The notes beneath the pieces were generated by a model. The model was given only the letters and a program-made list of their open reading frames with translations, did not search any database and had not been told where the DNA came from. 64,000 nt of DNA, from contig JAFIGI010000025.1 of assembly GCA_020831465.1 (NCBI GenBank), positions 45 to 64,044 on the forward strand, in the 5' to 3' direction. The translations under genes and the position numbers were made by a program. The number at the start of each line of letters is the position of its first letter. Position 1 is the stretch's first letter. Of this stretch, positions 9,604-43,302 are shown piece by piece. Origin of the DNA: Chlamydiales bacterium. Its GTDB lineage: Bacteria; Chlamydiota; Chlamydiia; Chlamydiales; JAAKFR01.

Positions 9604-10305
9604 TTACTGCCTTTCTTCTATTTGCAGCAGTGCATCCTGCGCAGCATGCGTCTGCGCCTCTTTTTTGGATGAGCCCCTCCCTTCGCCCCTTTTTTCCGAC
9701 CGGATCCAAACGACAACCCGAAAGAGCCTTTGATGAGCAGGTCCCGATTCTTCCACTACCTCGTAACGAGGTGTTTCCTGAAAATTTTTCTGCGTCCAAT
9801 CTTGGAGTTCTGCTTTCCAATTCCTTTGAGGGGAGGCAATCAGCCGATCGACATCCTCTTTAAAATGAGAAAAGAAAAAAGCGCGTGCGGCTTCAAGCCC
9901 CTGGTCGAGGTATAGCGCTCCGATGATCGCCTCAAATAGGTCGGCCAAAATCGAATCACGCCCTTTTCCAATGTTCATCTGCTCTCCTTTTCCCAGAAGC
10001 AAGTATTCGCTGATGCCGAGGTGCATAATGTATTGGGCGCACGCAGGAGCGTCTACAAGCTGCGAGCGGAGCTTCGAAAGAACCCCCTCATCGAGCTCGG
10101 GATGCTTCAGAAAGAGATAGTCCGCTATCAAAAGGCCTAATACAGAGTCTCCTAAAAACTCCAGCCGTTCGTTATGGCCGGAAACGAGATTTTGATTTTC
10201 ATTCCAAAAGGAGCGGTGAACAAAAGCCGACAGAAGCAAAGTAGGGTTTTGAAAGGCGATAGCGAGTTTCTTCTCAATCTCCTCAGCCCGAAAAAATTTT
10301 TGCAT
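9604..10305 (-). CDS. rnc: Ribonuclease III
   Basis: HNERLEFLGDSVL, ADLFEAIIGALYLD, C-terminal dsRBD. Confidence 0.97.
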   Translation of the reverse strand: MQKFFRAEEIEKKLAIAFQNPTLLLSAFVHRSFWNENQNLVSGHNERLEFLGDSVLGLLIADYLFLKHPELDEGVLSKLRSQLVDAPACAQYIMHLGISEYLLLGKGEQMNIGKGRDSILADLFEAIIGALYLDQGLEAARAFFFSHFKEDVDRLIASPQRNWKAELQDWTQKNFQETPRYEVVEESGPAHQRLFRVVVWIRSEKRGEGRGSSKKEAQTHAAQDALLQIEERQ

Positions 10306-29250: not shown

Positions 29251-30309
29251 TTAGCTTGCAGGATAATCAACCGACCAACTTTTTGGGATCGGTTTGCCGC
29301 TATACTCCCCTCCTCCACCGGTTTTTGAGTAAATGTATCCTTTCCCCTGATCGTTTTCTATCACGTGGATGATCCCATCTGCAATGAGTCCAGCCCCATT
29401 TCCATTTGGCACTGTTCCATCAACGTCAACGTATAAATCGTGATAGGGGTGAAACGTATTAGGTAAATCGAGCACAGGTATTTTAGACTCTCTTGCATGA
29501 TCGAGGATAGGTTTATAAAACCTCTCTAAAAACGCGTCAAATACACTCATCGACGGTTTTTTTAAATAGGCGATATCTCTTGAGGCAGACAAGGGAACCA
29601 CTTTATGACTCAAATAGAGGCCAAGCCCTCCAATAATTGGGGAGACGAGTTGAGAGATTTTGAAGGCGAAAGCGCCCGACATTGCTTGAAAGAGGGGGGA
29701 TAGGATCAAGGCGAGGCAGGCCAGATTCACAACAAAAGCCACAACTCCCACCGCTCCTAAAAATTTATAAATATCATGTACATCATTGCTGGCATCGGTA
29801 CGGTATTGCAACATTAAGATCGGAGAAACTTTTTGCTGATCAGAGGATAAAGATGTGACTTGGTTGATAATCTCTAGATAACGCTTCTGAGTATCTGAAA
29901 GATGTTTGGAAAACATGAGCACTTTCTTTGCTTTTTCCTTGGCGCTGTTGCCTTCGAGACTTAAAATATCTCGAAAATCCTCTTTTCCTACGCTTATTAG
30001 CACATAGTTCTTATTAGCAAGAGACTTTTTTAAGTTTTCGATAGGTTTGACAGTTCCTCCATTTGGTTTTCTTGCCTTAAGATACTTCTGCTTTTTTTCC
30101 TCAGGCAATCCCTTTCCAACCTCCCCACCTTCAAGCAGATCTTGTGTCGTAAAGCCGGCGTAAGCGAAGTTGTACACCGGGGTCTTACGGTTAAAAACGG
30201 TCTTCTTGTCATTCGATTTACTATCTAATTGTTTTTGAACGGTTTCTTCACTCTTTACCCAATATTGATTGTCGATTGTCGAATCCCCTATTAAATGAAT
30301 AGTAGTCAT
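29251..30309 (-). CDS. SGNH/GDSL-like hydrolase with internal TM hairpin (start probably MTTIHLIGDS at 30309)
   Basis: IHLIGDSTIDN block I, NFAYAGFTT block II, ISVGKEDF degenerate block III; lower GC than neighbours. Confidence 0.7.
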   Translation of the reverse strand: MTTIHLIGDSTIDNQYWVKSEETVQKQLDSKSNDKKTVFNRKTPVYNFAYAGFTTQDLLEGGEVGKGLPEEKKQKYLKARKPNGGTVKPIENLKKSLANKNYVLISVGKEDFRDILSLEGNSAKEKAKKVLMFSKHLSDTQKRYLEIINQVTSLSSDQQKVSPILMLQYRTDASNDVHDIYKFLGAVGVVAFVVNLACLALILSPLFQAMSGAFAFKISQLVSPIIGGLGLYLSHKVVPLSASRDIAYLKKPSMSVFDAFLERFYKPILDHARESKIPVLDLPNTFHPYHDLYVDVDGTVPNGNGAGLIADGIIHVIENDQGKGYIYSKTGGGGEYSGKPIPKSWSVDYPAS

Positions 30310-30313
30310 AAGA

Positions 30314-30853
30314 TTATCCTTTGTTAAAAGTGGTAAAGTAGAGCAGGGCAGCGATGGTTTTTGCATCTCGAATTTCCCCGCTAAAAATCATGTCGAGAGC
30401 GCGCTTGAGCTTAAGGGGAATCACATCAATCATTTCGGTTTCATCAAGACTTTGCTTTTTGAGGGTCAGATCTGTTGCCAGATAGATGAAAAGCTTCTCA
30501 TTGCAAAAGCCCGGGGTCGAGTAACAATTAAATAAAGGTTCGATTTTACCGGCGCGGTAGCCGGTCTCCTCCTCAAGTTCGCGTTCAGCGCAGTCCAAGG
30601 GATTCTCAATCTCCTCAAGAGTGCCCGCCGGAAGCTCCCATAGGGTCTCCTGAACGACATAACGGACGTTTTGAATAAGAACGACGGTTTCAGGCTCGAG
30701 GAGAGGCAGAATGACAACTGCACCGGGATGAGAGACAACCTCGCGGCGCACGGTCCCCCCTTTAGGGTGGTCGGCTTCTATAGAGAGAAGGTCGACACGG
30801 CTCCCATGAAAAAGGATTTCGGGTTTTTTATAGTTGTACGAGAATCCATCCAT
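30314..30853 (-). CDS. NUDIX hydrolase (ADP-ribose pyrophosphatase-like)
   Basis: ELPAGTLE...AERELEEETG, HPGAV, STPG, DAKT. Confidence 0.93.
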   Translation of the reverse strand: MDGFSYNYKKPEILFHGSRVDLLSIEADHPKGGTVRREVVSHPGAVVILPLLEPETVVLIQNVRYVVQETLWELPAGTLEEIENPLDCAERELEEETGYRAGKIEPLFNCYSTPGFCNEKLFIYLATDLTLKKQSLDETEMIDVIPLKLKRALDMIFSGEIRDAKTIAALLYFTTFNKG

Positions 30854-30909: not shown

Positions 30910-31039
30910 TAGCAGAATCAGAAGCGGCAAGACTTCATTCTCGAGGGGTTTGCTGTGAGTTAATAACGGACCAACCGGCGGATTTCCGCTTCAAGGTCGG
31001 CGGGTTGCGGCAAGACTTCATTCTCGAGGGGTTTGCTGT
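30910..31039. repeat. Perfect 33-bp direct repeat (30924-30956 = 31007-31039) next to a family-1 end fragment (30910-30921)
   Basis: GCGGCAAGACTTCATTCTCGAGGGGTTTGCTGT twice; TAGCAGAATCAG adjacent. Confidence 0.85.
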
Positions 31040-33059
31040 AAGGAACAGCGCTGTCGAATCCGCACAAGCGGTGAATGGGGGCGTCGAGATACTCAAAGGC
31101 CTCCTCGGCAACGCGGGCGGCGACCTCGGCACCGAAACCGCAATTGCGCGGCGCTTCGTGTGCGATCAAAAGTTTTCCGGTTTTTTGAACCGAGCTGATA
31201 ACGGTCGCACCATCAAGGGGAACGAGGGTGCGCAGATCGATTACTTCGACTGAGATTCCCTCCCTGGCAAGCTTCTCGGCTACTTCCCACGCCATCACCA
31301 CCATCATCCCCCAGCAGACGATCGTAAGATCACTTCCTTCGCGCACGACGTTGGCTTCGCCGAAAGGAAGAAGATAATCTTTTCCGGGCTCGGCCCGGGC
31401 GCAGAATTTCTGCTGACGGTAGAGTCCTTTGTGTTCGAGGAAAATAACAGGGTTGGGATCGCGGATCGCGCTCTTGAGCAGCCCTTTGGCGTCAGCCGCA
31501 TTGCTCGGAATGACAACTTTAAGACCGGGGCAGTGGGTAAGGAACCCTTCAATGCTTTGAGAGTGATAGGGGCCTCCCTGAATATACCCTCCATAGGGCA
31601 TACGCACGACGATCGGAACGTGCCACTCGCCGTTCGAGCGGTAATGGATGCTGGAGGCCTCATTGAAAAGCTGATTGATTCCCGTCCATAAGTAATCGGC
31701 AAATTGAATCTCTGCAACCGGCTTGTGCAGCCCGTCGACGCCCATCCCGATCGCGAGACCAATAATCGTCGACTCGGCGAGCGGCGTGTTGAAACAGCGA
31801 AGGAGGCCATATTTTTCAGTCAGCCCACGTGTGATGCCGAAAACACCCCCTTTTCCGTGGGCGACGTCCTGGCCGAAAACAACAACGTTTGGATCGTGCG
31901 CCATCTCTTCATCGAGAGCATGGTTAAGGGCATCCATGATCACGATTTTTTCTCCCTCTGCCGGAAGATCTCGAAGCGCCGCAGGCGGATCAAATGGGGC
32001 GAAGAGATTAAGTCGGCTGCTCCCTTTTTGCGGATAAGGCATCGCATCGGCTTCGACCGCTGCCCGCTCGACCTCTTCCCGAGCCTCTCTGCGAATCTTC
32101 TCGAAGATCTCACGATCGCATAGCTCCTCAGCAGTGAGCCACTCTTCAAGCCTCAAGATCGGGTCGCGCCCCTTTTCCCGCTCCATCATCTCATCGGATT
32201 GATATTTTCTTGCATCGTCGCTATTGCTATGCGGGGCCAGACGCGGAACGTGTGCGATTAGAACCGTCGGTCCCTCATGAGCGCGCCCCCTTCGAACCGC
32301 CTCGCCGATTGCATGCGCAACAGCGGGATAATCGGTTCCGTCGATCTCATGAAGAACCATGCCCTCATAGCCGCGGGCAACGTCGGCAACGCTTCCACCC
32401 GCACTTTGCTCCCTCGCAGGGACGGAAATGGCCCATTCGTTGTTTTGGATGACAAAGATAACCGCGAGGCGATGAATCGAAGCAAAGTTGAGAGCCTCAT
32501 GGAAATCTCCCTGAGAGGTAGCGCCGTCTCCGGCAGAGACATAAACCACCTCATCGTTTCCAAGATGGCGGTTCGACCAGGCGCGGCCGACCGCATGGAG
32601 AAACTGGGAGCCGACAACGCTCGATTGGCAGATGATGCGCAATTTTCTGTGGGAATAGTGGTGGGGCATCATCCGGCCCCCTGAATGGTTTTTAGTGGCC
32701 CGCCCTAGAAAGACGCCGAATAATTCGGAGAGATCGCAGCCAAGACCGATTGCAAACCCTTGATCGCGATAATAAGGAAGACCCCAATCGCGCCCTGCTT
32801 CAAGCGATTGGGCACACACGACTCCGACGAGCTCATGGCCGGCTGATGAGAGCTGAAACGTTCCACCCTTATTCTGCTTCACAAGCTTGGCCATTTTCTC
32901 GTCGGCAAAACGCGAGAGATAGATGAGCTTCAGGGTTTGAAGGACCTTTTCAGGTGTTGTGAAGGTATCCGTTTTAAGAGGGTGTTTACAAAGTGCTAAT
33001 GACTTAGATTCGGGTTCTTTTTTCGTAGGTCGATTTGGAACATTGGGGGCCATATTCAT
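30960..33059 (-). CDS. 2-oxoacid (branched-chain/pyruvate) dehydrogenase E1 alpha/beta fusion (CT340-like)
   Basis: GDGATSQG...NN TPP motif, HSNSDD, FNTPLAE, EIQFADY, VIDLRT. Confidence 0.93.
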   Translation of the reverse strand: MNMAPNVPNRPTKKEPESKSLALCKHPLKTDTFTTPEKVLQTLKLIYLSRFADEKMAKLVKQNKGGTFQLSSAGHELVGVVCAQSLEAGRDWGLPYYRDQGFAIGLGCDLSELFGVFLGRATKNHSGGRMMPHHYSHRKLRIICQSSVVGSQFLHAVGRAWSNRHLGNDEVVYVSAGDGATSQGDFHEALNFASIHRLAVIFVIQNNEWAISVPAREQSAGGSVADVARGYEGMVLHEIDGTDYPAVAHAIGEAVRRGRAHEGPTVLIAHVPRLAPHSNSDDARKYQSDEMMEREKGRDPILRLEEWLTAEELCDREIFEKIRREAREEVERAAVEADAMPYPQKGSSRLNLFAPFDPPAALRDLPAEGEKIVIMDALNHALDEEMAHDPNVVVFGQDVAHGKGGVFGITRGLTEKYGLLRCFNTPLAESTIIGLAIGMGVDGLHKPVAEIQFADYLWTGINQLFNEASSIHYRSNGEWHVPIVVRMPYGGYIQGGPYHSQSIEGFLTHCPGLKVVIPSNAADAKGLLKSAIRDPNPVIFLEHKGLYRQQKFCARAEPGKDYLLPFGEANVVREGSDLTIVCWGMMVVMAWEVAEKLAREGISVEVIDLRTLVPLDGATVISSVQKTGKLLIAHEAPRNCGFGAEVAARVAEEAFEYLDAPIHRLCGFDSAVPYSKPLENEVLPQPADLEAEIRRLVRY

Positions 33060-33145
33060 TTAATATTGTCCCCCAATGTTCCAAATCGACCTACGAAAAA
33101 AGAATCTCGAATATAAGCCATTATGACTTTGTAAACACCCTCTAA
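32975..33145. mobile_element. 165-bp palindromic MITE-like element, family 2 (32978-33142), with TAA target duplication
   Basis: GAGGGTGTTTACAAAGT...ACTTTGTAAACACCCTC termini, near-continuous hairpin, TAA at 32975-77 and 33143-45. Confidence 0.88.
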
Positions 33146-34320
33146 GCATCTGCCGAGAAAAAGGATTTGATCTTCTCCATAAAACTTCTTTTGCGCGGCA
33201 AATTGTCGATTCCCTCCGTCTCTCCGAACTCCTTAAGCATCTTCTTCTGATTTTCGGTCAAATGCGTTGGAGTTTCAACCAGGGTCCGGACAAGGAGATC
33301 TCCTCTCCCGCGGCCGTGGACGTTGGGGAAACCTTTTCCGCGGACACGGAAAATTTTTCCGCTCTGGGTACCCTCGGGAATGGTTAGGAGGCAAGATTCG
33401 GATAAGGTCGGAATCTCTTTTTTGGCGCCGAGCGCTGCTTCTGCAAAGCCGATCGGCAGGTCCAAGAGCAAATTGTCCCCCTCGCGCTCAAAGACAGGAT
33501 GGGGCTGGACATCGATAAATACGTAGAGATCCCCGGGCGGGCCTCCCCCCTCTCCCTCATCTCCGTAGCCCGACATTTTCAAACGCATGCCGGAATCGAC
33601 GCCTGCTGGAATATGTACCTTGACATGCTGTTTTTCACGCATGCGCCCCCGGCCTCTGCACTCTTTGCATGGGTCGGTCACAATCTTTCCTTCCCCATGG
33701 CACTGTGGACAGGTCGAAGACATGCTGAAAAAGCCGCGGGTTTGAAAGACCTGCCCTTGGCCGTTGCATTGGGTGCAGGTTTTAATGCCGTTGGCAGATG
33801 CGGCTCCGCTCCCCTTGCAAGAACCGCACTGCATCAAACGGGTGACGGCAAGCTCTTTTTCTACACCTTTAGCGGCCTCTTCGAAGGAGATGCGGATTGA
33901 GGCCTTCTTGCTCGCTCCCTGTCTGACATACCCTCCTTCGCGCCCCCCTCCCCCGAAAGCGCCTCCGAATAGGGTCTCAAAAATCGACTCGCCTCCTCCG
34001 CCGCCGCCGAAAGCGTCCATGAAGGTGCGCAACGCATCTTCCATCGATCCGAAGCCATGGGCTCCGCCGCCTGGGGCTCCTGCTCCCGCAAAGACCCCTT
34101 CCTTTCCGTAGCGGTCATACATTTCCCGTTTTTTTGGATCGTTGAGAACCTCGTACGCTTCAGAGACCTCTTTGAATCGCGCTTCTGCCTCGGCGTCTCC
34201 GGGATTTTTATCGGGATGGTATTTAAGAGCCATCTTGCGGTAGGCCTTTTTGACCTCCTCTTGTGAGCATCCCTTAGAGATCCCTAAAACCTCGTAATAA
34301 TCCATGACTTTCTGGTTCAT
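33142..34320 (-). CDS. dnaJ: Chaperone DnaJ
   Basis: HPD J-domain, G/F region, CxxCxGxG repeats. Confidence 0.97.
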
Positions 34321-34493
34321 CGGTTGCGGTATTTAGCTGCTGCTTTCGATTTTGCACGCTTCTTTACAGAAGGTTTGTCGTAAAAACGGTGCGCCTTTGC
34401 GGCCTTCATCACCCCTTCCTTGTCCAATTTCTTTTTCAACGCTCTGAGAGCCTTGTCAATCGTCTCTCCGATGCGAACTTTCACACTTGGCAT
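34317..34493 (-). CDS. rpsU: 30S ribosomal protein S21 (58 aa, absent from the ORF track)
   Basis: [62 protein letters not shown] overlap with dnaJ. Confidence 0.95.
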
Positions 34494-34535: not shown

Positions 34536-34564
34536 ATTTTACCAAGGATCTAATTACCTTTCAA
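34536..34564 (-). promoter_or_regulatory. Sigma66-type promoter of rpsU-dnaJ
   Basis: Minus strand TTGAAA-N17-TAAAAT. Confidence 0.6.
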
Positions 34565-34614: not shown

Positions 34615-37600
34615 ATGTTTCGTACAAACTTGTTCGACTCTCTTTTTACGGCTGCCGACAGGCCGGACCTTCGATCTTCAACCTCTCTATCAGAGGAAAA
34701 AACCGTCATCAAAACTGTTGATCCTGTCCCTATAGAGGCGCGCCAATTCGGCCAGCGCCTCGTTGCAAACCAACTGGAAAACTCTCCAATAGAAGGGCAA
34801 GACTCTTTGGCAAGCTTAGCCTATTGGATTGAGATTGTCTCTCTTTTTTTAAAGGGGGAAGGGGAAATTCTTGAGACAGGAATTTCCCCGAAACATTTTG
34901 CCGAACTCAAAGAAATTTTGGAAGACTACTCCCGCTTGAAGAGCCTCATTCAGAAAGCGAGAGGAGATGAGGAAGACCGAAGGAAATGCGCCCAATCGGT
35001 TCAAATGGAGATCAAAGAGAAACTCTCCCTTGGAAGAAGGGTTGCCTATCTTCCCCTAGGATACGCGGCGGGCCCCTTGAACGAAGGGCACGCAATTCCC
35101 CTTAAATTCCGCATGTTTAAAAATTTGGTTGAAGGAATGTGTTTAAATCTGGGGGAAGGTGTCCAGATGCACCCTGAACTGATGTGGAATCAAATTGAGG
35201 TTCTCTACCATTTCCAGAGCTTTCCAATTCATTTCGACCCGGAAATCCTCTTCGGCCCAAAAGGCGAAAATATGCTTTGCCGATTGATCCGCCTTCAAAA
35301 TGAAGAACCTGGCTGGGAGGATCTCCCCTATTGCGCCGAGGATTGCTATGGCCCTTTTTTAGAACTGGGGACCGTTCAATCAACCTTCGACTCGAAGCTT
35401 GCCGACCGAGCTGAACCCGCGCAAAGAGGGCCGATTTGCGCTGATATGGCGACCTTGCTCATTATTAAAGATCTTCTGATAGACCTGGGCTACCAAAGAG
35501 TTCAAATCGAGAGCTTAATCCTTAATGAAAAATATTGCGCCCTTATCAGTTTTTACGCGCATTTAGAGAGAAAAGGATCGTATAACGAGTGGTCATTGCT
35601 GAAAAAGGGAGTCATCCAATACGCAGTTGATCTTGCCCAAGCATATGAAAAGAAGATCGTCCAACCAGAGGAACTCTCCGCGCTACGAAGAGCGTGCGAA
35701 GAGCTCTCGCTAAAAGTAGAGAGGCGCGTCGACTCTCTCAAACCTCTTCCTCTACTACATCCGGCGTTGAAAACAGATTCTTTTTCCTATCAAGGCTTTT
35801 CTGAAGAAGAGTTGCAAGGGACAGGTTTCCAAGAAATTTCAACCCCGAAAGAAGAGAACGTCTGCCTTCACCCACCCAAAAAATTGCCGGCGCCCGAGAG
35901 GTTATTGCTCAATCTCAAAATCCGGCATGAGATGCTGGAAAAAGCCAAGCCGGAAGCGATACGCGCTTCTTATTTTGTGATTCAGCTCTTTCTTCTTCTC
36001 CCTGTTCCCAACCCCTTCGAGAAAGATTATTGGGACGCCATCCCTTCCTCTCATATTCCGGAAGTGCTTCGACTTCTCGCTCTTTTGGTCTGTAAACAGC
36101 TCGCATGGAAAGAGGAGCAGAGCCACTATCTCAATATCATTGCCGTTCACACGGCATACGCGATTGCCGACAAGCTCGCAAGAAGGGTTCCCGAAATGCG
36201 GTTAGAGGGTTTTGCATCACCTTTTTACGGATCCAGCATCGAAAAAAAGGAACAAACCCGCCTCTCCTCAATCTTTTTTAACCCGGGTTTCGCAAAAAAG
36301 GAGGAGTATTTTGAATTCGACCTTCTTCCCTTCGGCGCGGGAAATAGGCAGTGGAACGCGATTCGCCGCTATTTTGAAACTCAAGACGAAAATTGCCAGG
36401 GGCCCACGCTTTTTGCACTTTCCAAATCGCACATCAACGTAACCGAAGGTGTACGAACGCTTCAAAGCGGCTTGTTTTTTAAGAGGCAGCTCCCCTCTCC
36501 GGAATCGGAACATCTCTCCTATTTGCAGCAGTTTTTTCCAAAAGATTTTAAAAGCGGCAATGTGGAACAACTCGCGGCTACTTTTGCCAAATTTTGGCTA
36601 AACCGTGAAGGAAAAATGTTGCCCGCGGAATATGAGCCTCTTTATTTTCTTGCTTACTCCGCTTGGACGGCTTTTACAGGCCTGCCTAATCGGATTTCCG
36701 ATTGGAGGGGAGTTGTCAAAAGATGGGAAGAAAAGATCCCCTCTTCAACCGACATCTTTATTTCTTTTTTAGGTGATAGATCACATCGTTATATCCAGCG
36801 AAACGGAGACGAAATCGTTCATAAATTCCGCAATCGTGAAGAGGAAAGAGAAAATGGGGAAAACAAAGCTCTATGCCTCCAAAGAGCCCCTTGCTCCTAT
36901 TTGAGCGTGAAAACATCTCAGGAGTGGAGACGCATCTTCTCGACGCCTGAGATGCGCGTCACCTCCATCATCCAATGGCTCCGAAAAAACCTTTCAAGTA
37001 TCTCCTCTAACCACTTTTCCCTTATCGAATGCGGCTTGTTTGAGCCGAGCTTTCTAGATAAAAAGATCTGCGAAGAGCCCAATTTGGTGAAAGAGCTCCA
37101 TCTTATCCTCAGAGATGGAATTACATACTTTTGCAAGCAGGAATCTCGAGATCATATGCTTTTTTGCATCAGAACCGCAATTCTTCTCGAGTCATTCGCC
37201 CCAAGTGTAGACTCAACTATTTTGATCGCGCTGGAAAACGACCTATTAAACATGATCGAAGAGCAGAAAGAGCCTGAAGCCGAGTTCTACCATCTCTTGC
37301 TTCTCTATCGGATTGCGCTGCCAAGGAACGAAGATTCCGCTGCGGAGCTCGCAAAGGCAAAATTTTATCTTAAATACTACGCTTCTGAGATGAGTGGGAG
37401 CACGAGCAGCTTACCTCACTGGCTGGTCTCTGAAAGCAGATTTTCCTTTTTTCAATCCTTGGAAGGCATTGGATTCTCTTCTCCTTCGTGGAAGAAAGAA
37501 GTAGCCCGGCATGTCCTGAGACGGACAGTGCCCGATTTCCCCCAAAATCAAGCAATAAAGGAGGCACCCTATCCTTTCATCAAATATGGCGATTATACTT

Positions 37601-40600
37601 TAGACCTCGAAAATTGCCTCATAAAAAGAGGTCATAACGAAACTTTGATTCGGATCGCATCTCACCCTTATTTTAAATTGCCTGCATGGAGTTCGGCAGG
37701 AAAACTGATCTCCTTGGACGGAAACTCGATGCTGAAAAAGAACGATCAAGGGGAATATCTTCTCTTTTCCAAAGTATCCGTGGATACTCTCAGTTCAAGA
37801 TGGTATAGGCTCTCTTCGCTTCAATTTAAGCTCTTCGAGAATGAACAAATCCTGATCGAAGATGAGGAAGGAACGCGCGACGAACAGAGGCATATCCTGA
37901 TCGGAGAGAAATGCCTGGTGGTTCCGCAGAGAAGAGGCGAGTGGAAAATCTTTCAATTGCGCCAGGGTCGAAAGAGCGGCCTTGTGCTCGCAAACCAGAG
38001 GAAAATCAGTGCTGATTTATTCTCACGGTTGAAGATGGAAGAGGAATTTCGCTGCTGGTCCAACCCGAAAACAGACCAAATTCAAGAGATAGATCTTTTC
38101 AAAGCCGATCTTCTTTTCCGTTTCGAAAGAGGAGAGGGATATCTCTCCATGCAGTTTCCCGACTATCTCCTTGCCGCTGAACAAAGCTTGAAAGAACTGA
38201 ACCACTACCGGGGCTCTCTTGTCCTTTCAAACGGCGCAAAACTAGCCTTGATCCTTCCCTCAAAAAAATTGCGGGCGGAAGCAGAAGATTTTTCTCCCGT
38301 AGCCGTTCCTCAAAAGGAATATTTCTGCTCGAAGGAGAGATATTTTTTCTATACTGTAGACCAAGTTGCCGAATTACTCATAAGCGATGATCCTTTGGCA
38401 AATCTCTACCTGGTACTGCTTTTTTCCAAGCAGCGCGACTATAAAAAAGCATTTCGTTATCTTGAGCGCGCTCACTCGTATAAGCGCTGCTATAAACAAA
38501 ATCAATCCTTTTCCGCCTCTCTCATGCAGGCTTTTCTCAATTTGAAGGATGAATCTCCCGAAGCGCTCGCATTCTATCTTCATCTTGCCTTGTTTTATTT
38601 GGAAAACGCTTCGCAGCTTATTCATGATCACTATGGGGAGGACAATCAACACCATAATCTTGTAGAGAGTTTATGCCTTTGGACGGGCAAGATGTATGCT
38701 CGATACATTCCGGCCCTTTCTTCTCATTCTGCAAGTCCCGTACCTTACTACTGCCGGCTTACACCCGTCCAGGAAACCCTTTTGCTTTCAAAACTCAAGC
38801 ATGTCCTGAAAAATAAAGATGAGCTGAATAAAAAAAATCTCCTTCGAAAATTTGGATTGGACCCATTTAGGAAAGAAGCTGAGCCTCTCCTCTTATCGCT
38901 CAACCTAAATTGGATCCCTTCTTTAGAATTCCGTGAACGTTTGCTTGTTGAAAAGAGAGTGGAGAAAAGGATCCCCAAGAGTTTCTATCCCGCGCAGCTT
39001 GCGGCTTATTTTTTCCTGCCTCTAGTGCCAATTTCAGAGAGATTGTCATCCTACCCCCCTATATTCTCGGAAGATGAGCGCAGGACCCCTCTGCAGGAGG
39101 ACTTTGTGCGGATCAGCCTTGAGGCTCTCCGTAGGAATTTTCCCCTCCTTTATGAACGGGCCAGAAAGGGCAGCGGCACTCTTGATATTTACTACATCCT
39201 GCGCAGCGAAGCGGGAATAAATTCGTCCTATCTTCTCGCCTATGCAGCCCTTCTACATTACATTGGAAACTACCCACGCGATTTTTCCGATCTGAATTTT
39301 GGGGAAGAGCGTGAGAAAAATCTCAGCATTTTCAGAAAGATTGTGGAACGCGCTTCTCGATTTTACGCCAACCTCATTCGACAAGCTTCCGTGATCTCAA
39401 ACCTCTACCGGCGGACCGTAACTTTCAGCTACAGCAATAAAACGATTCTCGCGCTGCCTCCTTCTGAAAAGATTGCTCCTCTGAAGTGGGAATTTTCCGA
39501 AAAAGAGCAAGAGGAACTTTCAGCCTTCAGAGAGGAGGTCTACACTCGTTTTTTAAAAGAGGATTTGAGAAAATCGACCCTCCCCATCATTCCTTCAGAT
39601 AGCCTCTTCGCATTCGATTCCTATTCTCCTTCTGGGCCGACGGAAAAAGAGCTTGTCGAAACGCTCCGCGCGGGGCATCGCATGCTCGCCGATAGGAAAT
39701 CGGGTAGAACGATCTACGGTTTGAAAGAGGGAAGAAGGCTCGACACAATTCAGAAAAAAGCCGATCTCCTCCTTCAGAAAAAACGGCTAGAATTGCGCGA
39801 TCTCAAAGAAGAGACGGAAAAATTGGCAAACCGTCTTCCAAAAGAGGCCGACCTCATATTTTTACGCAAGCTGGGGCAAGATTTGCCAACCGTGATCATA
39901 GAGGAGATTCTGACCGCTGCTTATGAACAACAAAACCCCGCACTTGTGCAAGAGGCAAATCCCCTATTAACTCCCAAAGAGGTGCGGCAGATCCTTTTCG
40001 ACACAATCAAGTACCACTTGCTCCGCATTCAAATTCTGCAATTGGAAAAAGCGGCGGTCGCGCCCGATATCCAAGCCTTTGGTGAAGCTTTAGCTCTTCA
40101 CACAACCCTTTGCCCAACCAAAGAGCCTGAACTTTACCTTTATCAATCCTGCTCGGGAAAAATTTTATGGCATGAGCAGGCTAGACTTATCGAATGGTAC
40201 TACGAGAGAGCCATGCGCCACCGCCTTACCCTTTTTGCGGCGCCTGCCGGAGTCGGAAAAACGACTCTCTTTCAGCCCATTGCCATGAAGTGGCTGCAGC
40301 GAAAAGGCTATTTCCCGGTCAGCGCCTCCCCTACTCCCCTCTATTTGGTCGACCGAGAGGGACTCCGCTCAGCGGCGCAGCAAGCGTTTGATTTGCAGAT
40401 CGCTGTATGCGAGCTCGCGCTCGGTACTAAAGCGGACGCAAAAGATTTTCAATGGCTTTTTGAAAAACTCTCTCAATACCAAACGCTCAAAGGGCTGAAA
40501 CTCACGCCCTCCGTCTATTTAGCCCTTCTGCTTAAATACGAGTTGGCCCTCGAATGCGAAGATGTCGAATCAGTCCGCTGGATCAGCCTGACGCTGGATC

Positions 40601-43302
40601 TTTTTAAACGTAAATCGGTTGGTTTGATAGATGAGGCGAGGCAAAACGCAAGCCCTTTCTCCCAATCAGAAATCGGAATCGGAAAGCCCCTTCCCCTCCC
40701 CCCCGTCGACAGAAAAGTTTTTGTCGAAATCTACCGCGCCCTGACCTCCAAACAACTCCTTGGGGTTGTTGGATTAACCAAAAACCTTCAAGCTACCGTC
40801 GATCCCGAACTCTATCCCGAGATCAAAGCCGCGGCTTTTAGATTCCTTGTAGATTCGCCTTATCTCGACATTCCTGAAAAGGAGAAAAAGAATCTGCTCG
40901 CCTACTGGATGAGCGAAAAAGAGGAACCCGAGTGGCTCCTTTCAATCGCCCCTACAGATCAGGGGCGCGCTCTCGAACTCGTCAAGATTTATTTTGAGGA
41001 GTTTTTCTACGAAGCGATGAAATGCGTTGGCAATATGCAGCATCGCCCCTCACAGAAAATAGATGAAGAGATCCATCTTCCGGCCCGTAAAAAGCAAGCG
41101 AGCGATGCCTATTTCAAAGAGGTTTACGCAACTTTGATCACCACGATACAAGGGACGCTGCAGATCGGCCTAAGCTCAGCCCAAGCTGAGAAATTGCTCA
41201 AGGTTTTGAAAAGAGCGCACGTCAATGAAGTCGGCTACTCGGAAAATCTCTCCGAGACGGAGAAAATGCTACGTCGATGGCTAAACAATGATTCTATCCG
41301 CCTCTACTCTCTTTCCTTTGAGAATCGAGGGACAGTCGAGAGAGTGACCGATCTCGTTTCCCGCAATCCCGAGGCGATTTTGTTCTACTTGGAACACTGC
41401 GTCCTACAGCAGGTGACCTATTGCCCGGAACAGCTGGTCGTCACGCCGATACACTTTCTCAACGCCTTTCAAAAAGCGGTTCTCTTTTCTGCAGACCCGG
41501 GCCCTGCTGAAATGTATGCGCTGCCTGAAAAAAAGGAAGCAGTCGGTCTTAATACGACTTTTTTGGCTCATGTCATTCATAAGCTCTCACTTCCGGAAAA
41601 CAGCGACCTCGTCCTCTTTCCGATCTTTACCCGTCCATTGGAATTTTTCGAATGGCTTTACCAACTTAAAAAACGACTCTTCATCGATCTCAAAATGATC
41701 GCTGATGCCGGCGGCGCCTTGCGCGATTTTTCTAACGAGGAGATCCGCCGTGATTTCTTTGCGTTTTTGGAGGCGCATCGAGAAATAAATTACGATGGGC
41801 TCATCCTCTTCGCCGAGTCAAGCGGATTAAGCGAGCAGAGCGAACAGCTCCTTTACCTTAAAGGGGAGAAAGAACCAAAAATCTTGAAAGGCAATGACAT
41901 AGTAGAAGCCTTAACGATGCATGGCCTTAGGTGGGAGTCCCTCAACCTCTTGACTTTTATCGATCCCAGCCATTGTACGGGGGCCAATATCAAGCAGCCT
42001 CCTCAAGCGCGGGCTCTGCTCCTTTTGGGTGAGGATCTGACTATTGGGGACCTTATCCAGGGGGTGATGCGTCTCAGGGAATTTCTGCATAACCAAACCA
42101 TCTCATGGGGAGCATCCTTTCCTCTTGCGCGAAAAATCGAGCATACTTTAGGGCGAAAAATCGATCCTCTTGCTTGTCTCGCTTGGACATTGCAAAACGA
42201 AGGAGTCCGCATCGATAACGAGATTCTTTTGAGCGCCTACCAGCAAATCACCTATCTAATTGAAAAGGAGGCGCGTGAGGAACTCGAAGCGCATCTGAAC
42301 AAGCCGGAAAAACAAATTTCCACTTGGAAGAAGTACCGCTCCGGTTTCGTCAGCCAATACGAATGGGATCCGATCCGGCGTTTCAAGATTAAAAGGGGGG
42401 AGCGGGAGACCCGAAGCGTTCTAATGGAGTTTGCCCAAGAGCTTTATAGCCGTTTCTCCTATTCTAAATCTTTTAAAACTCTACAGGACTCTCTAAATCC
42501 GATCATCGGGAATGTAGACAAAAGAAAACCTACCCTTTCCTCTTCAGATTCTTTCTCAATGAAAAGGCAGACGCAAATGCGCGTTCATCAGGAGCAAAAG
42601 AGAAAGCTTGACTTGATCTCCGTCAATCACACATCGCTCGACCCGGACATTCAAACCCCTCTTCCCAAATGGCTTGTGATCGACCGACCCGATTTTCTTA
42701 CTCAATTCGCCTCCTTCTCTTCTCCTTGCAAAGAGCTCTTTGGCTCGAAAGGCTTAACCGAGGGCCTTTTTTTGACGCACAATCTTGTCCAAACTGCACA
42801 GACAGGAGCCTCTTCTCTCGGTTTAGATTATTTGAAGCCGGCTAATTATTTCCTTTTAATCGAAGAAGAACAGTTATGCGCTCTTGCTCTTTCTGACGAG
42901 GAGGCCTCTTTTTTCCAAAAACAGCTTATTTCGAAAGAAAAAGGTGGAAATCTAAAGATTGCGCTGATTTGCGCAGACGGTAATTTTGCGCAAAATGGAA
43001 GGGGATCCTTCGCCTTTTCTCCCAGTATTTTAACGCATACCTTTGTTCAAGACTGCGTGATCGACCTGGGATTGATGCAGTGCCGTCTTTACCATCCGCT
43101 TCGCTTTTCGCAGAGGATAACCCATTGGAACGATTTTTGGCCCCTGTGGCTAAGAATCAAAAAGTCTCAACCTTCATTGAGTGAAATCGAGCCTGAGCAT
43201 ATCGAACGTTTGGTTCCAAAGCATATTAAGGAGGGACCGCAAGAAGAAAAAAACAGCAAAAGTTTTTTTCAACTTTTTACAAAGAAATTAAGCTTGCATT
43301 AA
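34615..43302 (+). CDS. Giant 2895-aa protein; N-terminal H/N/Q/C protease-like motifs and C-terminal SF2/SecA-like P-loop ATPase (DUF3638-like)
   Basis: GH159AI, LN178LGEG, Q270RGPIC275; APAGVGK1882TT, LID2006EA, LFSAD, HCTGANI, IQ2482GVMRLR. Confidence 0.75.
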   Translation: MFRTNLFDSLFTAADRPDLRSSTSLSEEKTVIKTVDPVPIEARQFGQRLVANQLENSPIEGQDSLASLAYWIEIVSLFLKGEGEILETGISPKHFAELKEILEDYSRLKSLIQKARGDEEDRRKCAQSVQMEIKEKLSLGRRVAYLPLGYAAGPLNEGHAIPLKFRMFKNLVEGMCLNLGEGVQMHPELMWNQIEVLYHFQSFPIHFDPEILFGPKGENMLCRLIRLQNEEPGWEDLPYCAEDCYGPFLELGTVQSTFDSKLADRAEPAQRGPICADMATLLIIKDLLIDLGYQRVQIESLILNEKYCALISFYAHLERKGSYNEWSLLKKGVIQYAVDLAQAYEKKIVQPEELSALRRACEELSLKVERRVDSLKPLPLLHPALKTDSFSYQGFSEEELQGTGFQEISTPKEENVCLHPPKKLPAPERLLLNLKIRHEMLEKAKPEAIRASYFVIQLFLLLPVPNPFEKDYWDAIPSSHIPEVLRLLALLVCKQLAWKEEQSHYLNIIAVHTAYAIADKLARRVPEMRLEGFASPFYGSSIEKKEQTRLSSIFFNPGFAKKEEYFEFDLLPFGAGNRQWNAIRRYFETQDENCQGPTLFALSKSHINVTEGVRTLQSGLFFKRQLPSPESEHLSYLQQFFPKDFKSGNVEQLAATFAKFWLNREGKMLPAEYEPLYFLAYSAWTAFTGLPNRISDWRGVVKRWEEKIPSSTDIFISFLGDRSHRYIQRNGDEIVHKFRNREEERENGENKALCLQRAPCSYLSVKTSQEWRRIFSTPEMRVTSIIQWLRKNLSSISSNHFSLIECGLFEPSFLDKKICEEPNLVKELHLILRDGITYFCKQESRDHMLFCIRTAILLESFAPSVDSTILIALENDLLNMIEEQKEPEAEFYHLLLLYRIALPRNEDSAAELAKAKFYLKYYASEMSGSTSSLPHWLVSESRFSFFQSLEGIGFSSPSWKKEVARHVLRRTVPDFPQNQAIKEAPYPFIKYGDYTLDLENCLIKRGHNETLIRIASHPYFKLPAWSSAGKLISLDGNSMLKKNDQGEYLLFSKVSVDTLSSRWYRLSSLQFKLFENEQILIEDEEGTRDEQRHILIGEKCLVVPQRRGEWKIFQLRQGRKSGLVLANQRKISADLFSRLKMEEEFRCWSNPKTDQIQEIDLFKADLLFRFERGEGYLSMQFPDYLLAAEQSLKELNHYRGSLVLSNGAKLALILPSKKLRAEAEDFSPVAVPQKEYFCSKERYFFYTVDQVAELLISDDPLANLYLVLLFSKQRDYKKAFRYLERAHSYKRCYKQNQSFSASLMQAFLNLKDESPEALAFYLHLALFYLENASQLIHDHYGEDNQHHNLVESLCLWTGKMYARYIPALSSHSASPVPYYCRLTPVQETLLLSKLKHVLKNKDELNKKNLLRKFGLDPFRKEAEPLLLSLNLNWIPSLEFRERLLVEKRVEKRIPKSFYPAQLAAYFFLPLVPISERLSSYPPIFSEDERRTPLQEDFVRISLEALRRNFPLLYERARKGSGTLDIYYILRSEAGINSSYLLAYAALLHYIGNYPRDFSDLNFGEEREKNLSIFRKIVERASRFYANLIRQASVISNLYRRTVTFSYSNKTILALPPSEKIAPLKWEFSEKEQEELSAFREEVYTRFLKEDLRKSTLPIIPSDSLFAFDSYSPSGPTEKELVETLRAGHRMLADRKSGRTIYGLKEGRRLDTIQKKADLLLQKKRLELRDLKEETEKLANRLPKEADLIFLRKLGQDLPTVIIEEILTAAYEQQNPALVQEANPLLTPKEVRQILFDTIKYHLLRIQILQLEKAAVAPDIQAFGEALALHTTLCPTKEPELYLYQSCSGKILWHEQARLIEWYYERAMRHRLTLFAAPAGVGKTTLFQPIAMKWLQRKGYFPVSASPTPLYLVDREGLRSAAQQAFDLQIAVCELALGTKADAKDFQWLFEKLSQYQTLKGLKLTPSVYLALLLKYELALECEDVESVRWISLTLDLFKRKSVGLIDEARQNASPFSQSEIGIGKPLPLPPVDRKVFVEIYRALTSKQLLGVVGLTKNLQATVDPELYPEIKAAAFRFLVDSPYLDIPEKEKKNLLAYWMSEKEEPEWLLSIAPTDQGRALELVKIYFEEFFYEAMKCVGNMQHRPSQKIDEEIHLPARKKQASDAYFKEVYATLITTIQGTLQIGLSSAQAEKLLKVLKRAHVNEVGYSENLSETEKMLRRWLNNDSIRLYSLSFENRGTVERVTDLVSRNPEAILFYLEHCVLQQVTYCPEQLVVTPIHFLNAFQKAVLFSADPGPAEMYALPEKKEAVGLNTTFLAHVIHKLSLPENSDLVLFPIFTRPLEFFEWLYQLKKRLFIDLKMIADAGGALRDFSNEEIRRDFFAFLEAHREINYDGLILFAESSGLSEQSEQLLYLKGEKEPKILKGNDIVEALTMHGLRWESLNLLTFIDPSHCTGANIKQPPQARALLLLGEDLTIGDLIQGVMRLREFLHNQTISWGASFPLARKIEHTLGRKIDPLACLAWTLQNEGVRIDNEILLSAYQQITYLIEKEAREELEAHLNKPEKQISTWKKYRSGFVSQYEWDPIRRFKIKRGERETRSVLMEFAQELYSRFSYSKSFKTLQDSLNPIIGNVDKRKPTLSSSDSFSMKRQTQMRVHQEQKRKLDLISVNHTSLDPDIQTPLPKWLVIDRPDFLTQFASFSSPCKELFGSKGLTEGLFLTHNLVQTAQTGASSLGLDYLKPANYFLLIEEEQLCALALSDEEASFFQKQLISKEKGGNLKIALICADGNFAQNGRGSFAFSPSILTHTFVQDCVIDLGLMQCRLYHPLRFSQRITHWNDFWPLWLRIKKSQPSLSEIEPEHIERLVPKHIKEGPQEEKNSKSFFQLFTKKLSLH
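43288..43302 (+). promoter_or_regulatory. TTAA-N7-TTAA box, overlapping the last codons of the giant ORF
   Basis: TTAA-GCTTGCA-TTAA, 49 nt upstream of ORF 43352. Confidence 0.45.

What the first reader, a model, noticed from the sequence alone, without database searches (positions are those of the whole stretch)
32975..33149. Palindromic element inserted in frame into the dnaJ/E1 overlap, supplying a stop codon, a leader peptide and a new N-terminus
Seen: removing 32978-33142 and one TAA restores minus-strand GCAGATGCTTAAAACGGAT, i.e. dnaJ ...ADA* overlapping ATG-CTT-AAA-ACG-GAT (MLKTD), the ancestral E1 start. The insertion is 168 nt, so it is in frame. The old ATG (33149) now reads a 29-aa peptide [29 protein letters not shown] ending at a single TAA at the hairpin apex. 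That TAA is followed immediately by ATG 33059, which adds MNMAPNVPNRPTKKEPESKSLALCKHP to the enzyme. The dnaJ stop became TAG using the element's first base. Known: Rickettsia palindromic elements insert in frame into genes, and TAA/TTA duplications are typical of IS5/PIF-Harbinger-type transposases. Inference: a chlamydial analogue that preserves operon function by stop-restart coupling in its loop, where translating arm 1 melts the hairpin and exposes the new start.
Basis: partly seen in the sequence, partly recalled or inferred. Interest (0 to 1): 0.85.

Follow-up and report, generated by a model that had tools for sequence, protein, structure and literature searches.

The report
Palindromic transposon inserted at dnaJ/E1 junction
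A 165-base hairpin-shaped mobile element has landed exactly on the overlap between a chaperone gene and a metabolic enzyme gene in an uncultured chlamydia-like bacterium, leaving both genes readable but forcing the enzyme to start from a new codon inside the element.

Summary
Window 33142..32978 (minus strand) is a 165-nt near-perfect palindrome flanked by a TTA/TTA duplication. Removing it restores a dnaJ stop/E1 start overlap, and that old start aligns with the E1 start of a same-genus relative.

It is a miniature inverted-repeat element (MITE) of an IS5-family transposon. An 863-bp insertion sequence in a genome of the same order has nearly the same terminal repeats and encodes DUF4096 and DDE_Tnp_1 domains. 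Six of seven further elements with this terminus have TTA or TAA on both sides.

Relatives of the element occur in many environmental Chlamydiae genomes. None of the dnaJ-E1 junctions of relatives that I checked carries it.

Consequences shown from sequence:
- dnaJ keeps a stop codon (TAG).
- The old ATG now opens a 29-codon ORF that ends at TAA at the hairpin apex.
- The intact 699-aa E1 frame opens at ATG 33059 and gains 27 element-encoded residues.

The proposed stop-restart relay is plausible but untested. The apex Shine-Dalgarno-like run is fully paired and costs about 20 kcal/mol to open. No RNA data exist.

In-frame insertion is not a trait of the family. Landing on TAA stop codons is (7 of 28 copies). 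Interest is moderate: a new member of a known kind.

The parts
32978..33142 (-). 165-nt near-perfect palindromic MITE, the non-autonomous derivative of an IS5-family element
   Evidence: Family alignment A1.
33126..33142 (-). 5' terminal inverted repeat GAGGGTGTTTACAAAGT. Its first G completes the new dnaJ stop TAG.
   Evidence: Matches the termini of the 863-bp IS in L104.
32978..32994 (-). 3' terminal inverted repeat, the reverse complement of the 5' repeat
33143..33145 (-). Target-site duplication, copy 1 (TTA on the minus strand)
   Evidence: The same TWA duplication is seen.
32975..32977 (-). Target-site duplication, copy 2 (TTA on the minus strand)
33103..33114 (-). Family-conserved left subterminal core ATATTCGAGATT
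   Evidence: Largely invariant in alignment A1; per-column list in the call.
33006..33021 (-). Family-conserved right subterminal core AAAAGAACCCGAATCT
33142..34320 (-). dnaJ, 392 aa. The stop is now TAG at 33144-33142.
33060..33149 (-). 29-codon ORF from the ancestral E1 ATG (33149-33147) through the 5' arm to TAA (33062-33060) at the apex. Proposed leader ORF.
   Evidence: The role as a leader is inferred.
33069..33074 (-). Shine-Dalgarno-like GGGGGA, 9 nt upstream of ATG 33059, fully base-paired in the hairpin
   Evidence: probability unpaired 0.00-0.01 for the five G
33057..33059 (-). ATG in the apical loop, immediately after the TAA. First codon of the 699-aa E1 frame. This ATG is specific to the window copy.
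33051..33053 (-). Second in-frame ATG (AATATGG), shared with 8 of the 18 other aligned copies
30960..33059 (-). Fused alpha/beta E1 component of a 2-oxo acid (branched-chain type) dehydrogenase, 699 aa, intact
32892..32894 (-). Next in-frame ATG (Met56), the alternative start. It would remove conserved residues 38-55.
34317..34493 (-). rpsU (ribosomal protein S21), first gene of the likely operon rpsU-dnaJ-E1-NUDIX
34536..34564 (-). Sigma-70-like promoter match TTGAAA-17-TAAAAT upstream of rpsU
   Evidence: A consensus match only.

Best explanation
A non-autonomous transposable element (MITE) inserted into the triplet TTA inside the 8-nt overlap between the dnaJ stop and the E1 start (ancestral GCAGATGCTTAAAACGG). 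It is mobilised by an IS5-family DDE transposase that duplicates a TWA/TNA triplet.

Shown from sequence:
- The insertion duplicated TTA.
- The element's first G turned the dnaJ stop from TAA into TAG.
- The ancestral E1 ATG is separated from the E1 body by 168 in-frame nucleotides that hold a single stop, TAA, at the hairpin apex.
- The only start codons that keep the whole conserved E1 domain are ATG 33059 and ATG 33053 in the apex. The enzyme would then carry 27 or 25 element-encoded residues.

Inferred:
- E1 is still made.
- Ribosomes finishing dnaJ restart at the old ATG, as they presumably did before the insertion.
- They translate the 29-codon ORF, which melts the 5' arm, and terminate at the apical TAA.
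- They restart at the adjacent ATG. This makes a three-step relay: dnaJ, leader ORF, E1.
- Free 30S subunits are largely shut out because the Shine-Dalgarno-like run is locked in the stem.
For: Element identity:
- Termini and palindrome.
- An 863-bp IS (L104) has termini GAGGGTGTCTACAAAGTC, identical to the window element in 17 of the first 18 nt. It holds two overlapping ORFs that hit DUF4096 (2e-29) and DDE_Tnp_1 (3.5e-24).
- Identical TTA or TAA lies on both sides in 6 of 7 further elements with this terminus. The same holds for 8 of 16 family copies whose ends are clear and for both short copies in the own genome.

Lineage-specific insertion:
- The element DNA matches only 2 of 40 relatives, and there at other loci.
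- The 24 relatives' dnaJ-E1 junctions that were printed are element-free.
- 0 of 80 metagenome E1 loci carry it.

Ancestral start:
- MLKTDTFTTPEK aligns without gaps to MAETQAFTTSEK of G002.
- Two family relatives (L023, L024) have ATGA stop/start overlaps at this same junction, so coupling here has precedent.

E1 looks maintained:
- The 699-aa frame is intact.
- Its terminal branch length is 0.16, equal to the median of 12 orthologues.
- Three intact E2 genes are present in the genome.

Need for a relay:
- Opening -15..+12 around ATG 33059 costs 20.3 kcal/mol, and the five G have probability unpaired 0.00-0.01. The AAAUG of the loop is unpaired.
- TAA and ATG are adjacent.
- A start at Met56 would delete residues 38-55, which align to the solved homologue 1um9_A and to Pfam E1_dh from residue 46.
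- Termination-reinitiation coupling is documented in bacteria (PMC6728339; I saw only the search listing and the start of the abstract).
Against: - There are no expression data of any kind. No RNA run holds the locus.
- A perfect stem of about 80 bp is the kind of substrate RNase III cuts (recalled), and the genome encodes RNase III. Cleavage would separate the apical ATG from the E1 body.
- Two successive restarts should each lose ribosomes, so E1 output may be low.
- The intact frame and the ordinary branch length are equally expected if the insertion is recent and E1 is already silent.
- The loop ATG is not a family feature, and loops vary freely. Its two unique substitutions may be neutral.
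- Only one genome carries the insertion, and no closer relative than 75-82% E1 identity was found. Fixation and age are therefore unknown.
- The 16S rRNA is not assembled, so the anti-Shine-Dalgarno sequence was not checked.
Confidence: 0.5

Rival explanations
1. Same MITE insertion, but it has silenced or crippled E1. The hairpin blocks initiation or is cleaved, and the gene is a young pseudogene or hypomorph that has not yet accumulated lesions. The leader ORF and the apical ATG are accidents.
For: - The Shine-Dalgarno-like run is fully paired, and opening costs 20.3 kcal/mol.
- The stem is -113 kcal/mol.
- RNase III is present.
- The single in-frame stop is unremarkable. The E1 frame has 1 stop against 2-4 in the other five frames of the element, and in-frame length is at chance level in the family (5 of 19).
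- The loop ATG is absent from the 18 other copies.
- A second, split E1 alpha/beta pair exists elsewhere in the genome (C68).
Against: - The 699-aa frame is intact, with a terminal branch at the family median.
- Three E2 genes are retained.
- The fused E1 is kept in 36 of 40 relatives (37 of 40 have a match, but G037 matches only split alpha and beta chains; G018 and G008 hold partial copies). That suggests it is not dispensable.
- The second E1 is only 30-45% identical, so it is probably a different complex.
- None of these points excludes a recent event.
Confidence: 0.3
2. E1 is translated independently from the next in-frame ATG (Met56, 32894). That gives an N-terminally truncated enzyme, and the element-encoded codons are untranslated leader.
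For: The Met56 region is the most accessible of the candidates. Opening costs 6.3 kcal/mol and mean probability unpaired is 0.58. It lies outside the hairpin.
Against: - It would remove residues 38-55, which align to solved E1 alpha structures (1um9_A from residue 38).
- That segment includes the motif LKLIYLSRFADEK, whose SRFADEK-like stretch (variants such as SRFTDEK, SRLTDEK, ARFTDEK) is kept in all 20 orthologues examined.
- Pfam E1_dh starts at residue 46.
- No purine-rich Shine-Dalgarno sequence beyond GAG precedes it.
Confidence: 0.12
3. The palindrome is an assembly or library artefact (a fold-back chimera) and is not present in the organism.
For: No single contig spans the whole palindrome. 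Depth is only about 3-6. All runs come from one study.
Against: - Contigs from 4 runs cross each junction from unique flank into the element. X1 and X2 cross on the E1 side; X1, X3 and X4 cross on the dnaJ side.
- No empty-site joint is seen.
- The clean 3-bp duplication, the family membership and the related copies in many other genomes are not what a chimera gives.
- Breaks inside perfect inverted repeats are expected of k-mer assemblers (my inference).
Confidence: 0.03

Closest known systems
MITEs derived from IS5-family insertion sequences (DUF4096 + DDE_Tnp_1 transposase with a two-frame orfAB; I recall these as the IS427/IS1031-type groups with TNA duplications)
   Same: - Terminal inverted repeats nearly identical to a full-length IS (L104).
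- 3-bp TWA/TNA duplication.
- No coding capacity.
- Dispersed copies.
- Empty sites in relatives.

   Different: - The whole element is a palindrome, not just its ends.
- No matching transposase is assembled in the window's own genome. The only hit is a 50-aa fragment at 50% identity.
- The subgroup name is recalled, not tested.
Rickettsia palindromic elements (RPE; recalled; PMC1166351 seen only in a search listing)
   Same: A palindromic repeat of about 100-170 nt in an obligate intracellular bacterium. In this one copy it contributes translated codons to a host protein without breaking the frame.
   Different: - RPEs are known for in-frame insertion inside genes as a family habit. Here 27 of 28 copies are intergenic, and lengths are not biased to multiples of 3.
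- This family has clear terminal repeats, a target duplication and an identifiable transposase type.
- Sequence similarity to RPEs was not tested.
Correia (Neisseria) and ERIC (enterobacterial) hairpin MITEs co-transcribed with flanking genes (recalled)
   Same: A long hairpin element sitting between co-transcribed genes, expected to affect mRNA processing and translation of the downstream gene.
   Different: - Correia elements duplicate TA (recalled); this family duplicates TWA.
- No sequence relation is known.
- Here the element supplies the start codon and N-terminus, not only untranslated structure.
Translational coupling by termination-reinitiation at overlapping or adjacent stop/start codons (PMC6728339; listing and start of abstract only)
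   Same: Both junctions have the right geometry. The dnaJ TAG overlaps ATG 33149 (ATGCTTAG), and the leader TAA abuts ATG 33059 (TAAATG).
   Different: The intermediate ORF is transposon-derived and would have to unwind a -113 kcal/mol hairpin. Nothing has been measured here.
Tourist-like MITEs of PIF/Harbinger transposons in eukaryotes (recalled)
   Same: TWA (TAA/TTA) target duplication, short terminal repeats, a transposase distantly related to IS5.
   Different: Those are eukaryotic. There is no evidence of relatedness beyond the transposase superfamily.

Membership tests
IS5-family-derived MITE | Terminal inverted repeats matching those of an autonomous IS of the family | tested here: met
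   L104 (G174:C98) is an 863-bp IS with both termini GAGGGTGTCTACAAAGTC. The window element has GAGGGTGTTTACAAAGTC, so 17 of 18 nt agree. Its ORFs hit DUF4096 and DDE_Tnp_1.
IS5-family-derived MITE | Short direct target-site duplication of fixed length (3 bp, TNA/TWA) | tested here: met
   - Window: TTA/TTA.
- C46 and C8 copies: TTA/TTA.
- 6 of 7 elements have identical flanks.
- 8 of 16 non-D-type copies have identical flanks. 12 D-type copies have unclear ends.
- One element has TCA/TCA (L106).
IS5-family-derived MITE | Small and without transposase coding capacity | tested here: met
   165 nt. Only ORFs of 26-36 aa lie within it.
IS5-family-derived MITE | Multiple dispersed copies, with empty orthologous sites | tested here: met
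   - 24 loci in 9 MAGs, 12 of them in one MAG.
- 13 matches in G012.
- 18 of 400 genomes of the order, a floor.
- Own genome: only 1 full copy plus 2 deletion derivatives.
- The junction is empty in all relatives checked.
IS5-family-derived MITE | Mobilisation in trans by the cognate transposase | not testable with these tools
   The own genome shows only a 50-aa fragment at 50% identity to the L104 transposase.
Rickettsia palindromic elements | Recurrent in-frame insertion within protein-coding genes, with element codons translated | tested here: not met
   1 of 28 copies touches coding sequence. Lengths are divisible by 3 in 5 of 19.
Rickettsia palindromic elements | Sequence similarity to RPE consensus sequences | not tested
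   No RPE sequence was at hand. Rfam gave only sub-threshold generic hairpin (miRNA precursor) matches.
Termination-reinitiation coupled gene pair | Upstream stop overlapping or adjacent to the downstream start | tested here: met
   ATGCTTAG at dnaJ/leader and TAAATG at leader/E1.
Termination-reinitiation coupled gene pair | Downstream initiation depends on upstream translation | tested here: inconclusive
   Prediction only. 20.3 kcal/mol to open the apical start region, with the Shine-Dalgarno-like run fully paired. No expression data.

The most novel reading that the evidence does not exclude
The hairpin apex of this MITE copy has been turned into a working TAA-ATG stop/start junction by two substitutions found in no other copy (loop AATTC to AAATG). 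E1 would then be made only by ribosomes handed on from dnaJ through a 29-codon, hairpin-melting leader ORF. That would be a natural, transposon-built translational relay tying the output of a metabolic enzyme to translation of a chaperone gene. Separately, the family's invariant, asymmetric subterminal core, kept across subfamilies that have different termini, may mark an unknown DNA-level function of these elements.
Probability: 0.25. Interest if true: 0.6.

Novelty: new member of a known kind. Interest (0 to 1): 0.4.

Why it matters
- It gives an apparently undescribed MITE family, and its IS5-type partner, for annotating environmental Chlamydiae genomes. My four literature searches found no description. 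These palindromes also break assemblies: in G012 several contigs end inside copies.
- It shows that a TAA/TTA-targeting element tends to land on stop codons in compact genomes and so often spares the genes around it (7 of 28 copies).
- The window copy is a natural test case for whether translation can be relayed through a very stable hairpin by a short upstream ORF. If E1 is made this way, it shows how an operon can survive a hit on an overlapping stop/start.

Tried and rejected
- **Rfam scan of 32800-33350.** It gave only sub-gathering matches to miRNA-precursor hairpins. I read these as generic long-hairpin matches.
- **Promoter and terminator scan.** Nothing lies inside the element. There is only a promoter-like site upstream of rpsU.
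- **Search for an autonomous partner in the own genome, G012 and G322.** IS5-family ISs exist in the own genome (C35, C60, C36), but their termini differ and none carries the family core. The partner type was found only in G174.
- **Sequencing runs.** No RNA holder is listed. All four holders are Logan contigs from one study at depth about 3-6, so they give no allele frequencies and no transcript ends. The stretch 33069-33088 is not covered by any listed contig.
- **Metagenome scan with the E1 N-terminal part.** The best relative is 75% identical, so no same-species locus was found and polymorphism could not be judged.
- **Open-frame test.** I asked whether the family keeps an open frame, as RPEs do. 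The E1-equivalent frame has 0-2 stops in several subfamilies but 3-9 in others, and the copies are related. I do not count this as evidence.
- **Orientation relative to neighbouring genes.** I saw no clear bias by eye and did not test it statistically.
- **16S rRNA.** It is not assembled, so the anti-Shine-Dalgarno sequence is unchecked.
- **Literature.** No paper describing MITEs in Chlamydiae turned up. This covers only open-access full text and bioRxiv. Supplementary files were not consulted.
- **Papers seen.** PMC9769881 (Cardinium MITE): passages read with find; unrelated element. PMC6728339, PMC1166351 and PMC5010888: search listing only.
Full report
**1. Observation**

The minus strand of the window reads ...TTC TCG GCA GAT GCT TAG|AGGGTGTTTACAAAGT... 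...ACTTTGTAAACACCCTC|TTA AAA CGG ATA CC. The 15-mer terminus occurs exactly twice in 64 kb, once per strand; 0.09 are expected, and 0 of 100 shuffles reach 2.

The 165 nt at 33142..32978 fold into one hairpin of -113.3 kcal/mol. Shuffled sequences average -39.4 kcal/mol, z = -18.2, and 0 of 200 fold as well. TTA flanks both ends.

The mechanical ORF list confirms three ORFs:
- dnaJ at 33142..34320, with stop TAG.
- A 29-codon ORF at 33060..33149.
- A 699-aa ORF at 30960..33059.

Pfam identifies the neighbourhood as rpsU, dnaJ, a fused E1 alpha/beta 2-oxo acid dehydrogenase component (E1_dh 46-344, Transket_pyr, Transketolase_C) and a NUDIX hydrolase, all on the minus strand. A promoter-like site lies upstream of rpsU and none lies in the element.

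**2. Is it really in the organism?**

Logan contigs from four runs of a single bioreactor-metagenome study cross the E1-side junction (X1: 32811-33068; X2: 32807-33036). They also cross the dnaJ-side junction (X1: 33097-33500; X3: 33089-33353; X4: 33113-33390). No contig shows an empty-site joint.

The contigs stop inside the palindrome, as k-mer assemblers do at perfect inverted repeats (my inference). Depth is about 3-6, and the runs may include the source sample. This is consistency, not independent proof. Other contigs that matched 33110-33145 with 3 differences belong to the short copy on contig C46.

**3. What the element is**

*Copies in the own genome.* The own 1.8-Mb, 69-contig genome holds this one full copy and two internally deleted copies, both flanked by TTA on each side. 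One is 88 nt at C46:8106-8193, just upstream of a gene starting MAVPRSR. The other is 41 nt at C8:21485-21525.

*Copies elsewhere.*
- The element DNA matches 2 of 40 close relatives. G012 has 13 matches, several at contig ends; G020 has 1.
- It matches 18 of 400 genomes sampled from the order. That is a floor, because only two candidates per genome were scored.
- A strict two-part pattern from the conserved core found 24 loci in the collection of 185,579 species genomes. They lie in 9 MAGs. Seven are labelled Chlamydiae, Chlamydiales, Parachlamydiales or Parachlamydiaceae, and two are labelled Verrucomicrobia. Twelve of the 24 loci are in one MAG.

*The autonomous partner type.* The terminus pattern GAGRGTGTYTWCAAA occurs in 99 of 401 genomes of the order. 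The reversed-pattern control is nearly empty. One inverted pair 863 bp apart (G174:C98, locus L104) is a full insertion sequence. Both of its termini read GAGGGTGTCTACAAAGTC, identical to the window element in 17 of the first 18 nt. It has two overlapping ORFs that hit DUF4096 (2e-29) and DDE_Tnp_1 (3.5e-24).

*Target duplication.* Seven further elements with the same terminus but other interiors (92-246 bp) have identical TTA or TAA on both sides in 6 of 7 cases. One element in L106 has TCA/TCA.

The element is therefore a MITE of an IS4/IS5-family transposon with a TNA/TWA duplication. The window's own genome has no close copy of that transposase, only a 50-residue fragment at 50% identity. 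Its other IS5-family ISs have different termini.

**4. Family anatomy (beyond the finding)**

Nineteen diverse copies align into one hairpin of 66 pairs (alignment A1).
- 48 pairs show changes on both sides.
- 94.1% of cells are paired, against 68.8% in shuffles and 36-46% when the partner columns are slid.
- There are 322 double-change cells against 98 in shuffles.
- One-sided changes such as G-U are almost absent. This suggests complementarity is kept at the DNA level rather than by selection on an RNA (inference).

The most conserved parts are not the termini. They are a subterminal core (left ATATTCGAGATT.TTTT, right AAAAGAAC.CGAATCT) and the apex (TATT-loop-AATAT). The core holds the same mismatches in every copy, so the two arms are not mirror images.

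The termini fall into several types: GAGGGTGT.., GAGGTTGTC.., GAGAGTGTC.., GACCCTGATTGC.., AGACCTCTTGC... The profile scores the window copy at 131 bits in one orientation and 87 in the other. I have no tested explanation for a conserved core combined with exchangeable termini.

**5. The insertion site**

dnaJ followed by E1 is conserved. A dnaJ C-terminus lies upstream of E1 in 24 of 28 relatives' loci. None of these junctions holds the element, and none of 80 metagenome E1 loci does.

Taking out the element and one TTA gives GCAGATGCTTAAAACGG. That reads as dnaJ ...ADA-TAA overlapping ATG CTT AAA ACG GAT. The resulting MLKTDTFTTPEK aligns without gaps to MAETQAFTTSEK of same-genus G002.

All 20 orthologues examined start 15-27 residues before the motif LKLMYLSRF, and none has the element-encoded peptide. 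Two relatives (L023, L024) have ATGA stop/start overlaps at this junction. No purine-rich Shine-Dalgarno sequence precedes the old ATG. The ancestral E1 start was therefore probably already coupled to dnaJ termination (inference).

**6. Consequences**

Shown:
- dnaJ is unchanged except that its stop is TAG instead of TAA.
- The old ATG now opens 29 codons ending at TAA 33062-33060.
- The E1 frame is open from ATG 33059.
- There is no other ATG, GTG or TTG in frame until Met56.

A start at Met56 would remove residues 38-55. These align to the solved Thermus E1 alpha (1um9_A, from residue 38) and lie at the start of Pfam E1_dh.

The loop ATG at 33059 is unique to this copy. The nearest copies (L045, L060, L034, L046) read TATTAATTCAA(T/C)AT, the window reads TATTAAATGAATAT, and 0 of the 18 other aligned copies has an ATG in the loop. 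The second ATG at 33053 (AATATGG) is shared by 8 of the 18 other copies.

**7. Does the relay work?**

In the predicted equilibrium fold the loop AAAUG is unpaired. The GGGGG run 10 nt upstream has probability unpaired 0.00-0.01. Freeing -15..+12 around ATG 33059 costs 20.3 kcal/mol, against 6.3 kcal/mol for the Met56 region. Independent initiation at the apex should therefore be poor. A ribosome translating the 29-codon ORF would unwind the 5' arm and stop right next to the ATG. That is the geometry of termination-reinitiation (PMC6728339, listing only).

In favour of continued function:
- The frame is intact.
- The terminal branch in the E1 tree (0.16) equals the median of 12 orthologues.
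- Three intact E2 genes are present.

Against:
- An RNase III gene is in the genome.
- Two restarts in series should each lose ribosomes.
- No RNA run holds the locus.
- The evidence for function is equally expected from a recent insertion.

I put the relay at roughly even odds, conditional on the MITE insertion, which I regard as established.

**8.

- *In-frame or in-gene bias: no.* The window copy is the only one of 28 copies with flanks that touches coding sequence. Lengths are divisible by 3 in 5 of 19 copies.
- *Gene-junction bias: yes, in a simpler form.* In 7 of 28 copies the stop codon of an ORF of at least 100 aa coincides with the element edge or duplication, at distance -1 to +1: window, L045, L062, L064, L088, L098 and L103. 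At least four copies (window, L045, L062, L096) sit in tight junctions between co-directional genes. This follows from a TAA/TTA target together with survival only outside genes (inference). I did not compute a null expectation.
- *Conserved TAAATG apex: no*.

**9. Novelty and verdict**

Four literature searches found no description of MITEs in Chlamydiae. The one MITE paper I read in passages concerns Cardinium.

The element is a new member of a known kind, an IS5-type MITE. The insertion is a neat but not unprecedented type of event. The translational relay is an attractive hypothesis that is testable and as yet untested. Interest 0.4.

Noticed in passing
Alignment A1 (window 32978-33142 and 18 loci, e.g. 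L046, L050, L082, L093, L098): The most conserved parts of the family are an asymmetric subterminal core with invariant mismatches and the apex. The termini fall into several unrelated types, and the central stem turns over with perfect compensation and almost no G-U pairs. A conserved interior combined with exchangeable termini is unusual for MITEs and remains unexplained.
   Followed up: partly
L104 (G174:C98:1-1020): An 863-bp IS4/IS5-family insertion sequence with a two-frame transposase (DUF4096 + DDE_Tnp_1). Its termini are almost identical to those of the window MITE. It is the likely type of autonomous partner.
   Followed up: yes
G000:C46:8106-8193 and G000:C8:21485-21525 (own genome, outside the window): Two internally deleted copies of the element, 88 and 41 nt, each flanked by TTA. 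The C46 copy ends just before a GGAG and an ORF starting MAVPRSR, which looks like ribosomal protein L32 (recalled).
   Followed up: partly
L105-L109, L196-L202 (G317, G004, G005, G397, G395, G223, G216, G278, G383): Many other small elements (69-246 bp, mostly palindromic, often 160-171 bp) share the terminus GAGGGTGTYTACAAA and TTA/TAA duplications but have unrelated interiors. They occur also in same-genus genomes that lack the window's family.
   Followed up: partly
L096:7153-7315: A family copy sits between two co-directional minus-strand ORFs of about 207-225 aa, 5 nt from the stop of one and 5 nt from the start of the other. The downstream ORF's translation contains GPSGSGKT, which I recognise from memory as an ABC-type ATPase motif. 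I ran no family search on either ORF.
   Followed up: no
G012 contigs C147, C14, C43, C124 (L034, L036-L038): Several contigs of this MAG begin or end inside copies of the element. These palindromes fragment short-read assemblies.
   Followed up: no
window 34615-43302 (+): A 2895-aa ORF lies divergent from the rpsU-dnaJ operon. I did not examine it.
   Followed up: no
window 29251-30366 (-): A 371-aa ORF downstream of the NUDIX gene has no Pfam match at E <= 0.001.
   Followed up: no
window 570-929 (+) (G000:C65:614-973): A weak DDE_Tnp_1 match (22.3 bits; 30.1 with neighbours in the same frame) in a 353-aa open frame near the start of the window. It may be another IS-related gene.
   Followed up: no
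window 9862-10248 (-) (G000:C65:9906-10292): An RNase III gene (Ribonucleas_3_3, 2.1e-35) lies in the same window. It is relevant to the fate of the long hairpin in the mRNA.
   Followed up: partly
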